NCBI GenBank assembly: GCA_030141605.1 | Contig: JAQGDQ010001558.1 | Span: forward strand, 1-34,810 | Reading direction: 5' to 3' | Length of the DNA: 34,810 bases | From: Tubiluchus corallicola | Taxonomy: Eukaryota > Animalia > Priapulida | Part shown: piece by piece, positions 1-34,810 of the stretch | Position numbering within the stretch: position 1 is the stretch's first letter | Layout of the letters: each line of letters begins with the position of its first letter | Position numbers and translations under genes: made by a program | The notes under the pieces: generated by a model | Seen by the model: the letters and a program-made list of their open reading frames with translations, nothing else | The model's database searches: none | Told to the model about the DNA's origin: nothing

Positions 1-160
1 TCTCTCTCTCTCTCTCTCTTTCTCTCTCTCTTTTTCTCTGCTCTCTCTCTCTCTCCCCTCTCTGTCTCTCTCTCTTCCTCTGTCTTTTTCTCTCTCTTTC
101 TCTTCTCTTCCTCTCTCTTCTCTCTCTCTCTCTCTCTCTCTCTCTCTCGCTCGCTCTCTC
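1..160. repeat. (CT)n microsatellite, imperfect
   Basis: Direct inspection; mirrored as (GA)n at 2742..2935. Confidence 0.95.
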
Positions 161-1078
161 TCCCAGCCTTTCTTTCTCTATACTTTTCTGTAGCGCTTTC
201 GTCTTCCCTCGCACCCTCATTTTCCCTTCCAGTTCCATCTCTAAGTTTTTCATGAAGTTCAGCCATACTTGTAGAAAACTACATTCGCGTTATCAGAAAT
301 TCTTCATATTGTCAGTGGCTTGGGGAGCTTTTAACTGACTGACTGTGAGAATAGCTGTGGGCGTTTAAAAGCTGTCTAGCCTGAAAACTAATCATCTCGC
401 ATTCTTTACGCTAAAATTACCATCATAACAGAGAATAATCATCGGCGTAACTATATAGAGGCAAACATATCTGACTATTGGACCAACACAACATGATCTG
501 TAATTGGTATTGCAATGTATAAACACTCTGTAATAACTGCAATATGATATAATATCTGCAATATCATTCATATCATCGCGCACTTTTGTGACTTTGTAGT
601 AAAAATGAATGGCCAATATTAGCTTGTTAAACTAAGACAGGCCTAAATACAGAATTTGTTTTGATGACAATGACATTTTCTTTACATCCTTGGACTGTAA
701 TTTTTAAACGTCTTCCAAAAAGTAAAGAAATGGCAGATAACAAAGTCACAGACAACCAAAATGTAGAAGGTTCAGACATTTGATCAAAAGGTAAATGCTA
801 GAAGTATCTAAACAAGATTAAAAACGCTATTTGTATATTCGTGAGTTTCCTCTCTCTACAAAAACACGAAAACAGGATTGGAATTTAAAGTAGTTTTAGG
901 TTTTTTTTAAATCAGCATTAGCAAACGCAGGTAAACTAATGCTGACCGTATATGGGCCCAAGTCCTGCACTCTTTCACAGCCTAGATCTAACGTCTTTCT
1001 ATTTAACAATCAAACTTCTATATACACCTGTAATCAGGGGCCCTGGTATCAGGAATAGACTGTAATAACTCTCAAACA
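1..1078. repeat. Left arm of long inverted repeat A (runs off the left edge of the window)
   Basis: Reverse complement aligns by eye to 1823..2935, including the CT/GA microsatellite and the twin 74-aa ORFs 392..616(-) and 2287..2511(+). Scattered substitutions and small indels, roughly 3-5% (estimate). Confidence 0.97.
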
Positions 1079-1254
1079 ATGTTTGCTCCTTGTTATCAGC
1101 TGACATTTGTTCATCGTACTTGCAAAAGATTTCAAATGCAATACCTTTTATATCTGACTGAGAAAAAGCGAATACAATACTTGCCATGTGTAGATTATTT
1201 TCGTTAAGTACGGTAATTTGCATAAAAACAGCCGCGCTACACGTAATATCTTAC

Positions 1255-1438
1255 CCATAATCAGTGGTCCAACTTCTTTGAAAAAGGCGTGGTACCCATC
1301 TTGCGTGTATCCGAGGAACATAGTGAATATGCCACATATGATGAGAAAACCCCCTAAGAACATGAAAGTTCTGGCAATGTCTCTTCGAGTTCGCTCTGAG
1401 CACGTGCATATGTCGTGCAGTAAACGTCTCACAGGCAT
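1255..1438 (-). CDS. Two-TM membrane protein, coding exon 1 (inverted relative to exons 2-3); TMEM200/PIRT-like architecture
   Basis: MPVRR...FMFLGGFLIICGIFTMFLGY...VGPLIM-G ends at a strong donor ATG G|gtaaga (phase 1). A strong upstream acceptor (long polypyrimidine tract + ttacag) lies at 1667..1700 on the same strand. The LGY...GPLIMG pattern recalls TMEM200-type proteins (family call tentative). Confidence 0.75.
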
Positions 1439-1822
1439 CCCTAATGAGATGACGTCATGATTCCACTTACTTCAGGTGTGATCACCACCTTGTCAAAGAG
1501 GTAATGCATGATTTCAAGCAAAGTGTTAATTGTCTGTTCATGATTAAGTTTTATGTTGCAGCTGAAGAAGATGAAAGTGCCTTTCACCAGGTATCACGTG
1601 ATTTCACCTCACCTGGGCGCCATGATTCTTCTCATTCCTTCCTCTCGTCTGGCTGATTTAAGTTACCTGTAAAAGAAAACAAAAAAGAAAGAAAAAATTT
1701 TAACATATTTTAGTATTAGATAAACAGTCAGACAATCATCACGGCAAATAAAACCGCGGCAAGCGGATACTGAAGACGGTCACCTATCAGTTTACTGACC
1801 AGGTTTGATAAGGTTGCTTAGC

Positions 1823-2935
1823 TGTTTGAAGAGAGTTATTACAGTCTATTCCTGATACCAGGGCCCCTGATTACAGGTGTATATTAGAAGTTTGATTGTT
1901 AAATAGAAAGACGTTAGATCTAGGCTGTGAAAGAGTGCAGGACTTGGGCCCATATACGGTTAACATTAGTTTACCTGCGTTTGCTAATGTTGATTTAAAA
2001 AAACTCTAAAACTACTTTAAATTCCAATCCTATTTTCGTGTTTTCGTAGAGAGGAAGCTCACGATATACAAATGGCGTTTTTAATCCTGTTTTGACACTT
2101 CTAGCATTTACCTTTTGATCAAATTCTGAAACTTCTACATTTTGGTTATCTGTGACTTTGGGTTATCTGCCATTTCTTTACTTTTTGGAAGACGTTTAAA
2201 AATTACAGTCCAAGGATGTAAAGAAAATGTCATTGTCATCAAAACAAATTCTGTATTTAGGCCTGTCTTAGTTTAACAAGCTAATATTGGCCATTCATTT
2301 TTACTACAAAGTCACAAAAGTGCGTGATGATATGAATGATATTGCAGATATTACATCATATTGCAGATATTACAGAGTGTTTATACATTGCAATACCAAT
2401 TACAGATCATGTTGTGTTGGTCCAAGAGTCAGATATGTTTGCCACTATATACGTACGCCGATGATTATTCTCTGTTATGATGGTAATTTTAGCGTAAAGA
2501 ATGTGAGATGATTAGTTTTCAGGCTAGACAGCTTTTAAACGCCCACAGCTATTCTCACAGTCAGTCAGTTAAGAGCTCCCCAAGCCACTCACAATATGAA
2601 GAATTTCTGATAACGCGAATGTAGTTTTCTACAAGTATGGCTGAAGTTCATGAAAAAACTTAGAGATGGAACTGGAAGGAGAAAATGAGGGTGCCAGGGA
2701 AGAGGAAAGCGCTACAGAAAAGAATAGAGAAAGAAAGGATGGGAGAGAGAGCGAGAGAGGGAGAGAGAGAGAGAGAGAAAGAGAGAGAGAGAGAGAGAGA
2801 GAGGGAGAGAGAGAGAGAGAGAGAGAGAGAGGAGAGAGATAAGAGAGAGGGAGAGAAGAGAGAGAAAGAGAGAGAGAGAGAGAGAGAGAGAGAGAGAGAC
2901 AGAGAGAGAGAGAGAGAGAGAGAGAGAGAGAGAGG
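1823..2935. repeat. Right arm of long inverted repeat A
   Basis: Starts tgtttgaagagagttattacagtc, the reverse complement of 1057..1078 with a 3-nt insertion. Ends in the (GA)n tract that mirrors 1..160. Confidence 0.97.
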
Positions 2936-32492: not shown

Positions 32493-32966
32493 CTCACCTG
32501 ACCTGACTTGTGAAGATCTTACCTTACTCGACCTAATATTCACCTGACCTGATATGACCTTACTCAATCTAATATATACTGATTCACCTGACCTAATTTG
32601 TTTGGTGGGTGTTTTTGTTGGTTCTTGCTTTACCCAACCTAATGTACACCAGAGAATGTAATATCCACTACACTTAAAATTTATGCGTAGTGGATATTAC
32701 ATTATTTGTCCAAGATATTACATTATTACATGACCAAGGCTGACATCACTTAACTCAAGCTTATTAACATTTGATCTGTTAATCGATGTGCATTTTTTTA
32801 TCATATTAGACCTAGGTTCTGTTTAGGCCGAAACCTTTAGAACCTAAACAATCTAATTTAAGTTCATTAGTCTATTTAGCCTAGTCGGTTTAACCTCACA
32901 AATTTTTACCTTTACACAAAACTGCTTAGCATACCACCCCATGAAAAGCTTAAAGTATTTACTAAC

Positions 32967-33070
32967 CTGGCAAAAAGTTCAATCGCTTGATATCGTACTT
33001 CTTCGGGCATTTTCAGTTTTTCGCAAAGAAGAAAAATAAACTCTACACTTATCACGTTAATGAAAACGCC
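32967..33070 (-). CDS. CNTD1: CNTD1 coding exon 2 (gene incomplete in window)
   Basis: ttttcag|GVFINVISVEFIFLLCEKLKMPEEVRYQAIELFA AG|gttagt; matches CNTD1 GRF...VEFVFLLSEQWCLEKSVSYQAVEILER; phase 0 to 2. Confidence 0.85.
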
Positions 33071-33303
33071 CTGAAAAATTTCACGTAATCTTGCAGAAAT
33101 GCACACATTTAACGGCTAAAATACAAAATTTTTTTTCTTTAAAAAAACAAATTTAGGTGTTACACTGCAAAACGCCTGTCCTGAAAATCGCATAGTTACA
33201 TGATAAAAATTGCGATTTATCAACTTTCAAACTGGAACAAAAGATCAGAAAAGAAATACAGAAACCAAATTTTCATGTAAACATCCACATTTTCCAACCT
33301 CAC

Positions 33304-33447
33304 CTCATTTTCATCGGTTTTGCTGAAAGCTTCTTTATTTTGATCTGCCAGCACCTCAAACCATTCTTGGAGGACATCGTCAGAAAGGGGAGGATTCTGC
33401 GAATTGAAAAGTGGTTCTGGAGGTGTTCCAAAAATCTTGTTCGCCAT
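33304..33447 (-). CDS. CNTD1: Cyclin N-terminal domain-containing protein 1 (CNTD1/COSA-1), coding exon 1
   Basis: MANKIFGTPPEPLFNSQNPPLSDDVLQEWFEVLADQNKEAFSKTDENE|gtgagg, phase 0; parallels human CNTD1 ETIEDALLHLAQQNEQA (recalled, not searched). Confidence 0.8.
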
Positions 33448-34251
33448 TCTGTAAACAGTTACAGCTGTAGCGTTACAGGTCCAGAATTCCTACATATTTT
33501 TGAGTCTCCATAATATTTTTATAAAAAATACCTATATTATAATAAAAGCAAACGTTAAGCCTGTTGGCTAGTGGGTTGTTGCAAAATCCGACCGTATAAG
33601 TCGGATTTATCTTGAAGCCAACGTTTCACATTTGTACACCTTAACGAGTGTGGGCGAGAACATCATGGTTTGTTCCACTGTCACACTACCGTAGCCTGCA
33701 GGTCACCTTCTAAAATCATTGTTTCAAACTTTCCTTACCATGTCTAGCAGTGCAAAAATTGATAAAACAGGCAATCGTTTAACGCTCCACTCTCACTGAA
33801 ACTTTCAATTTATACGCGTTGTTTAATGGAATTTCGCTGGCCGAAGAGACATGGCGCCAGTTTATTTAATTAATAAAAAGTAACTGTATGTGGAGATTGG
33901 AACTACAACAGTGTAAATTACTGGCAGAGCTTTAACTAGTTTAAGTATCAAGCTAACCTCTGTCAACAAATACATAAAATTTTGGCGTTTAACGTAAACG
34001 CTCTCATCTTTGATTCTAGCACGTCAACAAAGTCATTGAATGCACTATTAGAAAATCAATAAAATTCTTGGGTAAAACAAGTAATAATTTAGATAAAAAA
34101 TAACAAAAAAATCTAGCAGCGGACAGATAGCATCGCGTGCTGTTGTTACGACGCTCCATCTGCCGAGGGAAAATGAATTAAAATGCAATTCTTTACGTTG
34201 ATTTTATTACCTTTTCAATTGAAATGACTCCAGAATCTTTTTAATGCATGT

Positions 34252-34810
34252 ATTATGGTGTAGTTTCTCAAAATTCAAGATTAACTCGTATTCTAATCTT
34301 TAGCAAAAGTACATAAGTTGGTGCTAGAAAACTGTATCAAATTGATCCTGTAATTACTGAAATTGCTTTGCATAATACATTATCATGTATCATTATCCTT
34401 TTAATGCAATTTACATTTTTATGGAAATTTATTAACAGAATATGTAATGTTTTATTGTAATTATTGTAAAGCGTTCTAGAGCATTGATAGTAAGCTATAG
34501 AAAGGTAAATAAACTTAGGAAACTTGAAAATAACATAACCGAAGAATTAATTTTGATTCAACCAACACAATTTTACAGGCTTACAGCCAACAAACTGAGC
34601 CAACACGTCTTACAGGTATGGGTAACTCTAGGTTTAAAATTAAATTTGGCGTAATTTATCAGGTTCATTACGATTAACATTATAATGTACAGGTTTCATA
34701 AAAATAGTGTTCTTATATTGTAATTTTCTAGCTTACACTTATATTATTAAAGTGACCATCTGAGCATGTAAAACCGTATTATTATAATAGTCTGTAAATT
34801 TTAAACAAGC
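34252..34810. repeat. Right arm of long inverted repeat B (runs off the right edge)
   Basis: attatggtgtagtttctc...ttaaacaagc mirrors 31934..32492. Confidence 0.97.

What the first reader, a model, noticed from the sequence alone, without database searches (positions are those of the whole stretch)
1..34810. Fringe-containing block with fold-back junctions at both ends: centre of an inverted triplication or palindromic amplicon
Seen: the layout is rc(A) - S - A ... B - T - rc(B). The central block M (1823..32492) is mirrored on both sides across short unique spacers S (1079..1822) and T (32493..34251). S holds exon 1 of a gene whose other exons are in M on the opposite strand. T holds the start of CNTD1, which has no continuation in M. 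Inference: one ancestral order X-T-rc(M)-S-Y fixes both anomalies. CNTD1 continues into X head-to-head with Fringe, and the two-TM gene becomes co-linear. The window then equals the middle of X-T-rc(M)-S | M | T-rc(M)-S-Y, the geometry of DUP-TRP/INV-DUP and ODIRA-type amplicons. Fringe, a dosage-sensitive Notch modifier, would be the only complete coding gene amplified. Caveat: multiple-displacement amplification or mis-assembly yields the same double fold-back.
Basis: partly seen in the sequence, partly recalled or inferred. Interest (0 to 1): 0.88.

Follow-up and report, generated by a model that had tools for sequence, protein, structure and literature searches.

The report
Fold-back artefact contig around single-copy Fringe
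The window does fold back on itself at both ends, but public sequencing data holding this locus show the ordinary gene order, no trace of the left fold-back and even depth, so it is most likely a sequencing or assembly artefact around an ordinary single-copy Fringe gene, not a real gene amplification.

Summary
The layout rc(A)-S-M-T-rc(B) is real: left arms 94% identical, right arms 100% over 559 bp. The amplification is not supported. In the deepest run (X2), both alleles of the S end run unbroken into a flank that is not A. Depth arithmetic accounts for all 9 X2 records laid, and none bridges S|A. The left arms behave as two alleles of one locus (17 of 17 listed X2 differences are left-arm alleles). 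Depth is level across M, S and T (152, 157, 149), against about 295 or more for a triplication. The left junction sits on a 7-bp microhomology and the loops are 0.75 and 1.76 kb, which fits phi29/MDA inverted chimeras. The right junction was not tested directly, the library type is not on record, and the sample may not be the source individual. Verdict: most likely an artefact around an ordinary 8-exon, 382-aa Fringe gene.

The parts
1..1078 (-). Left arm rc(A): part of intron 1 of the two-TM gene in its true position next to S; begins inside a (CT)n tract
   Evidence: X2 record 4 and X1 record 1 join it to S
1079..1829 (.). Loop S (751 bp with the microhomology); in run X2 it continues into flank Y, not into A
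   Evidence: records 4, 5, 6 and loose ends at 1828/1829
1255..1438 (-). Exon 1 of an unnamed two-transmembrane gene (161-aa model)
   Evidence: ATG, GT donor, phase 1, hydrophobic windows at aa 20-27 and 56; no homologue support
1823..1829 (.). Left fold-back junction: 7-bp microhomology TGTTTGA shared by the true end of S and the true S/A border, followed by a 3-bp indel relative to the left arm
   Evidence: no X2 record bridges it
1831..2911 (+). Inner copy of A; carries the other allele at the arm-difference sites
5256..5369 (+). Exon 2 of the two-TM gene
   Evidence: AG/GT, phase 1/1
7220..7407 (+). Exon 3 of the two-TM gene, with stop
9153..30774 (-). Complete Fringe glycosyltransferase gene, 8 exons (30774-30361, 16850-16696, 14990-14849, 14162-14077, 13703-13633, 11926-11832, 10263-10154, 9228-9153), 382 aa
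   Evidence: Pfam PF02434 on 3 exon ORFs; tblastn; frame check and blastp
31934..32492 (+). Inner copy of B (end of M)
32492..32493 (.). Right fold-back junction B|T; not directly tested
   Evidence: no listed piece bridges it, but 22,721 pieces were not shown; weak depth hint against it
32493..34251 (.). Loop T (1759 bp); its end joins rc(B) in run X1
   Evidence: record 6
32967..33447 (-). Exons 1-2 (33447-33304, 33070-32967) of a cyclin-N-domain gene (CNTD1-like, name recalled), cut off by the right junction
34252..34810 (-). Right arm rc(B), identical to the inner B; the true neighbour of T

Best explanation
The window folds back on itself at both ends, and is most likely an artefact contig built over a single-copy, heterozygous Fringe locus, the folds probably coming from inverted chimeric molecules made during library preparation, likely strand-displacement (phi29/MDA-type) amplification. 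Shown: the true neighbours are rc(A)-S, S-Y on both alleles, and T-rc(B); the left junction is not in the contigs of the deep run; depth is level. Inferred: a displaced 3' end re-primed 0.75 kb back at the 7-bp match (left) and 1.76 kb back (right), giving molecules that read forward, skip a loop and read back. An assembler that takes such a read at each end would stop there, which would explain why both arms end at the window's ends. The left arms probably differ because consensus or polishing drew on reads of both alleles; the right arms, though B is polymorphic in the sample, are identical, as one template would give.
For: (1) X2 records 5 (0 differences from the window, depth 107) and 6 (6 differences, depth 105) each run from 1712 through 1828/1829 and on for 127-128 letters of non-A sequence without a break; record 4 (787 nt) runs from A across 1831 into S without a break. 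A junction at allele depth on the window's own haplotype would split these contigs (inference from how de Bruijn contigs are built). (2) The 8 listed X2 pieces plus two deduced short records explain 30 of 30 depth bins to within 1.0; bin 1794-1848 has residual 0.0, where a bridging contig at allele depth would add about 106. (3) 17 of 17 X2 differences listed in A, 6 of 7 in X3 and 1 of 1 in X1 equal the left-arm allele. (4) Length-weighted X2 depth: M 152 (10 contigs), S 157 (1), T 149 (3); expected 148-184 for single copy, at least 295-368 or 443-553 for a triplication on one or both homologues. (5) Microhomology of 7 bp and loops under 10 kb match MDA inverted chimeras: 85% inverted with deletion, 2-21 nt complementarity (PMC1855051); modal distance about 750-1200 nt (10.1101/2022.08.13.503872). 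(6) A 34,810-bp window has only 1,637 bp (4.7%) of slack to hold both loops, which is expected if the folds end the contig.
Against: The library type is not on record, so MDA itself is not shown. The right junction was not resolved: the table was cut and X2 contigs break at 32492, which fits a nearby SNP or a junction equally. Sample S1 may not be the source individual: it shares 0.66-0.68 of the sampled words and has a 236-bp tandem duplication in A that neither arm has. Only assembled contigs were laid; they drop rare variants, and a filter hides some records (the second allele of 1961-2148 is itself missing from the layout). A single-molecule chimera predicts identical arms, and the left arms differ by 3%. 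Real inverted triplications can carry SNPs of both homologues and spacers of 1.1-34.9 kb (PMC10766186). One MDA-HiFi study found only one suspect chimeric contig in two assemblies (PMC11660948). The read-laying tool warns that depth is no copy number. That the window is a whole contig is inferred, not checked (no genome held).
Confidence: 0.87

Rival explanations
1. A real germline inverted triplication (DUP-TRP/INV-DUP or ODIRA product with widened spacers) in the individual from which the window was assembled, sample S1 being another individual without it.
For: The geometry fits. Homologue-mixed copies and kb-size spacers are described for real events (PMC10766186, passages). S1 differs from the window at roughly 1% of sites and has a tandem duplication missing from both arms.
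Against: X2 shows no third substitution allele over the 870 bp of A: all 17 listed differences are left-arm alleles, whereas the other sample, X3, has one private allele there. So S1 looks like the source or a close relative, and it lacks the left junction and any depth step. Both arms stop at the window's ends.
Confidence: 0.06
2. A real but rare somatic molecule, such as an inverted-dimer circle M-T-rc(M)-S (the ODIRA intermediate) or a mosaic triplication, caught by a few long reads.
For: Contigs drop rare variants (tool note), so a minority junction would be invisible here. A circle with these two junctions linearises to the same layout.
Against: No positive evidence. Primary ODIRA junctions have 40-80 nt spacers, not 751 and 1759. 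The arms are 1.1 and 0.56 kb rather than the full 30 kb. Library chimeras are far commoner: 40-50% of reads in Arabidopsis WGA (PMC6218980) and 8.8-30.9% in single worms (PMC10450198).
Confidence: 0.03
3. Only the right fold-back is real (a local inverted duplication of B with a second, truncated copy of the cyclin-gene start), while the left one is an artefact.
For: The right junction was not excluded directly; X2 contigs break at 32492. T begins with a low-complexity repeat that could host a rearrangement.
Against: T depth equals M and S depth. Bin arithmetic puts the start of the T-side contig near 32500, not at or before 32463 (weak, assumes one contig). The arms are identical although B is polymorphic in S1 (13 differences in 426 bp in X1 record 6).
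Confidence: 0.03
4. S and T are invertible cassettes between inverted repeats, or A and B are transposon ends.
For: Each loop holds a first exon or promoter, so flipping would switch a gene on or off.
Against: Both alleles of the S end lead into Y, so S has an A arm on one side only. A shows single-copy depth (73-253 in X2), while true repeats in the window reach 37,000-917,000.
Confidence: 0.01

Closest known systems
Inverted chimeras of multiple displacement amplification (Lasken & Stockwell 2007, PMC1855051, first quarter of text read; 3rd-ChimeraMiner, 10.1101/2022.08.13.503872, passages; Pacasus, PMC6218980, passages)
   Same: Inversion with a skipped loop under 10 kb; short complementarity at the junction (7 bp here, 2-21 nt there); left loop of 0.75 kb lies at the modal distance; junction missing from the bulk of the sample's data.
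   Different: Here it is an assembled 35-kb sequence with a fold at each end; the left arms carry different alleles, which needs a consensus or polishing step; amplification of the library is not on record.
Foldback artefacts of nanopore reads (Heinz, Meyerson & Li, PMC12338684, passages)
   Same: Mirror-image sequence that is not in the genome and can tangle assembly graphs.
   Different: Defined there as returning within 200 bp; the loops here are 751 and 1759 bp of genomic sequence.
DUP-TRP/INV-DUP and ODIRA inverted triplications (PMC10766186, passages)
   Same: Identical junction topology: inverted centre copy, two fold-back junctions with spacers, microhomology, possible mix of homologue SNPs.
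   Different: Copy-number gain and junction at allele depth were tested in sample S1 and not met for the left junction; spacers are far longer than primary ODIRA spacers (40-80 nt).
Fringe beta-1,3-N-acetylglucosaminyltransferases (Pfam PF02434)
   Same: Full-length 382-aa gene with the WFCHFDDD motif, 40-44% identical to arthropod and unnamed Fringe proteins.
   Different: Nothing unusual found; no sign of extra copies.

Membership tests
Inverted triplication (DUP-TRP/INV-DUP, ODIRA) | Two fold-back junctions bounding an inverted centre copy | tested here: met
   (in the window's sequence only)
Inverted triplication (DUP-TRP/INV-DUP, ODIRA) | Left junction present in genomic reads at allele depth | tested here: not met
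   unbroken S-Y contigs on both alleles, 0 of 9 X2 records bridge; sample may not be the source
Inverted triplication (DUP-TRP/INV-DUP, ODIRA) | Right junction present in genomic reads at allele depth | tested here: inconclusive
   table cut; weak depth hint against
Inverted triplication (DUP-TRP/INV-DUP, ODIRA) | Copy-number steps 1-2-3-2-1 | tested here: not met
   M 152, S 157, T 149; allele contigs reaching into Y 105-107; contig depth is a rough proxy
Inverted triplication (DUP-TRP/INV-DUP, ODIRA) | Mirroring continues for the full length of M outside the window | not testable with these tools
   no genome held; metagenome scan empty
ODIRA primary product | Spacer of 40-80 nt between short inverted repeats | tested here: not met
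   spacers 751 and 1759 nt against PMC10766186; secondary junctions can be longer
MDA inverted chimera | Inversion with intervening deletion, segments under 10 kb apart | tested here: met
MDA inverted chimera | 2-21 nt complementarity at the junction | tested here: met
   left junction, 7 bp; right junction untested because flank X was not recovered
MDA inverted chimera | Both arms copied from one template, hence identical | tested here: inconclusive
   right arms 559 of 559 identical; left arms differ at 26 of 870 sites in an allelic pattern
MDA inverted chimera | Library made by whole-genome amplification | not testable with these tools
   library not on record
Nanopore foldback read | Return within 200 bp on the opposite strand | tested here: not met
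   loops 751 and 1759 bp; definition from PMC12338684
Fringe glycosyltransferase (PF02434) | Fringe domain above Pfam's cut-off, intact frame | tested here: met
   3 exon ORFs score 27.7-59 bits against a cut-off of 21; 382-aa open frame

The most novel reading that the evidence does not exclude
The window records a real Fringe-bearing inverted amplicon in an invertebrate: a germline inverted triplication private to the source individual, built by template switching between homologues, or a somatic inverted-dimer circle too rare to survive in assembled contigs.
Probability: 0.09. Interest if true: 0.6.

Novelty: not a real feature. Interest (0 to 1): 0.08.

Why it matters
As an artefact it matters only as a warning. 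A double fold-back contig copies the exact topology of an inverted triplication, down to microhomology and mixed alleles, and it splits two genes across strands; only read data tell the two apart. If the amplicon were real, it would be a natural inverted triplication of a Notch modifier in an invertebrate and a test case for ODIRA outside yeast and humans.

Tried and rejected
No genome is held for the window, so the +/-40 kb dot-plot could not be run. A metagenome scan with a 25-mer from the start of T found 0 matches. No RNA holder was listed; this says nothing on expression. X4 laid 0 records on the left stretch and X1 and X3 have no contig across 1822-1831; these holes are no evidence. One search was swamped by high-copy repeats at 26.5-27.0 and 28.9-29.5 kb, so the right junction was not shown. 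I first read X1 record 6, unbroken at the end of B, as evidence against the right junction, then dropped that: an unlisted SNP 30 bases into B would give the same picture. Homologue search for the cyclin-gene exon 2 found none at E<=0.1; phmmer then found 5, none named. The searches for two-TM exon 1 and as protein 6 used the wrong frame and are void; in the right frame Pfam gave only weak TM-type hits below cut-off. The protein atlas gave no result. Hi-C ligation was considered for the left junction and rejected: the window lacks a filled-in restriction-site signature there (sites recalled, not from a call). No tRNA or Rfam family in the window. Earlier findings: none by place or sequence, none for two word sets. 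A paper search for fold-backs at contig ends listed one paper, not read; I make no claim that such contigs are undescribed.
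Full report
1. Observation. Self-BLAST finds two long inverted pairs, each cut by an end of the window: 1-1073 against 1831-2911 (94.0%) and 31934-32492 against 34252-34810 (559 of 559). 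Outside the microsatellite the left arms differ at 26 of 870 sites (15 transitions, 11 transversions); at that rate 0 differences in 559 has a chance of 4e-8, so the two pairs are not equally diverged copies.

2. Genes. Fringe is complete on the minus strand, 8 exons from 30774 to 9153, 382 aa, seven GT-AG introns, 40-44% identical to full-length Fringe proteins among the hits. The two-TM gene has exon 1 on the minus strand in S and exons 2-3 on the plus strand in M; phases fit and the second hydrophobic stretch straddles the exon 1/2 border. It has no homologue support, and my search for it was in the wrong frame. T holds the first two exons of a cyclin-N-domain gene; a 304-aa homologue matches them in order and nothing further in the window. 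CNTD1 is a recalled name. The organism is an animal by its spliced Fringe gene; I did not place it further.

3. Reads, left junction. Six runs were listed and four laid: X1, X2, X4 (one sample, S1) and X3 (another sample); all are assembled contigs. On 1079-2700, X2 record 4 (787 nt, depth 157) reads A on the minus strand down to 1831 and continues into S at 1079, and X1 record 1 does the same, so rc(A)-S is the true adjacency. At the other end of S, X2 has two contigs of equal depth, 107 and 105; one has 0 differences from the window, the other 6. Both run past 1828/1829 into 127-128 letters of sequence that is not A; the first 12 letters of it are not in the window. The only joint listed is the ancestral one. 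The listed pieces plus two short deduced records explain all 30 depth bins, and the junction bin has residual 0.0. Because a filter can hide records, the stronger argument is that records 4, 5 and 6 are unbroken where the junction would branch. The limit: assembled contigs drop rare variants, so the result is 'absent or rare in S1'.

4. The junction itself. The true S end reads TGTTTGA and then Y; the true S/A border also reads TGTTTGA. The window switches from one to the other across this 7-mer (1823-1829), with 3 extra bases against the left arm that may be an allele or a slip. Assemblers do not normally join on 7 bases (own knowledge), so the join probably existed in a molecule.

5. Alleles. 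All 17 differences that X2 shows against the inner A copy are left-arm alleles; no other letter is listed at the other 9 arm sites, one of which (2695) lies at the edge of the stretch. X3 matches the left arm at 6 of 7 and has one private allele. So the arms behave as the two alleles of one locus, and S1 looks like the source individual or a close relative (inference). Against that identity, S1 has a record going from 2384 back to 2149 at depth 69, a 236-bp tandem duplication that neither arm has. This fits an inner arm whose backbone came from one allele and whose SNPs were polished in from the other, or a different individual.

6. Reads, right junction. X1 record 6 (1262 nt) runs along T from 33430 to 34241 and continues on the minus strand from 32492 to 32067, so T-rc(B) is a true adjacency. 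No listed piece bridges 32492|32493, but 22,721 pieces were not shown. X2 contigs break at 32492, which a SNP 30 bases in or a junction would both cause. Bin arithmetic, assuming one contig, starts the T-side contig near 32500 rather than 32463 or earlier: a weak hint only. B is polymorphic in S1 (13 differences in 426 bp), yet the window's two B copies are identical.

7. Depth. Using the X2 contigs listed (one T contig of unknown length, depth 140, left out; one B contig's length estimated), length-weighted depth is 152 in M (10 contigs, 4,540 bases), 157 in S (1) and 149 in T (3). With an allele unit of 106 from the two S-Y contigs, single copy predicts 148-184 and a triplication at least 295-368 (one homologue) or 443-553 (both). 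The tool warns that depth is no copy number; I use it only as a comparison within one run. X1 is shallower and less even (listed contigs about 7-11 in M, 5-6 in T).

8. Mechanism. Shown: true order, missing left junction in S1, level depth, microhomology. Inferred: strand-displacement chimeras. In MDA a displaced 3' end re-primes on a nearby displaced strand; 85% of 475 chimeras were inversions with a deletion, mostly under 10 kb apart, primed on 2-21 nt (PMC1855051, abstract, background and part of results read). In long reads the commonest distance is about 750-1200 nt (10.1101/2022.08.13.503872, passages). Such reads made up 40-50% of Arabidopsis WGA reads (PMC6218980, passages) and 8.8-30.9% in single worms (PMC10450198, passages). 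A contig that takes such a read at each end would have nowhere to extend, which would explain arms that stop at the window's ends; an arbitrary window would have 4.7% slack to catch both loops. Against: one MDA-HiFi study saw one suspect chimeric contig in two assemblies (PMC11660948, passages), the library is not on record, and the left arms are not identical. Nanopore foldbacks are defined as returning within 200 bp (PMC12338684, passages) and fit less well.

9. Comparison with real triplications. The topology is the same as DUP-TRP/INV-DUP and ODIRA products, which can carry SNPs of both homologues and, after secondary rearrangement, spacers of 1.1-34.9 kb (PMC10766186, passages). Sequence alone therefore cannot decide. 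The defining copy-number gain and the left junction were tested and not met in S1, so I do not file it there. Other papers were seen only as search listings; no supplements were read.

10. Verdict. Observation confirmed, ancestral order confirmed, amplification not supported. Artefact 0.87; real germline event in another individual 0.06; rare somatic molecule 0.03; right fold alone real 0.03; invertible cassette 0.01. Interest 0.08. Earlier notes of this scan on fold-back artefacts in other genomes describe the same kind of thing; they were not checked and are not counted as support.

Noticed in passing
window 2149-2384 (run X2): One allele in sample S1 appears to carry a 236-bp tandem duplication with a 13-letter linker in intron 1 of the two-TM gene; neither window arm has it.
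   Followed up: partly
window 26500-27050, 28900-29450, 31590-31860: High-copy interspersed repeats in and upstream of Fringe intron 1: summed X2 depth up to 917,000, 55,000 and 2,200 against about 150 for unique DNA. Not identified; no tRNA or Rfam hit.
   Followed up: partly
window 1255-1438, 5256-5369, 7220-7407: Unnamed 161-aa two-transmembrane protein whose 3' end converges on the 3' end of Fringe (1.7 kb apart); no family assigned, homologue search not validly run.
   Followed up: partly
window 32493-32710: T starts with a low-complexity ACCTGACCT-like repeat right at the junction, followed by a 49-bp imperfect hairpin at 32655-32703.
   Followed up: no
window 4385-5135, 5443-5949, 7570-8027, 12110-12506, 13026-13281, 15037-15434, 17433-18093: Many intronic or intergenic tandem arrays, among them a 66-bp unit x10 at 96% and a 16-bp unit x28.
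   Followed up: no
window 22598-22760 and 23319-23488: 78% inverted repeat about 560 nt apart in Fringe intron 1, possibly an old MITE.
   Followed up: no
window 1831-2700 and 32067-32492: Allelic divergence of about 3% in non-coding DNA of sample S1, a highly heterozygous animal.
   Followed up: partly
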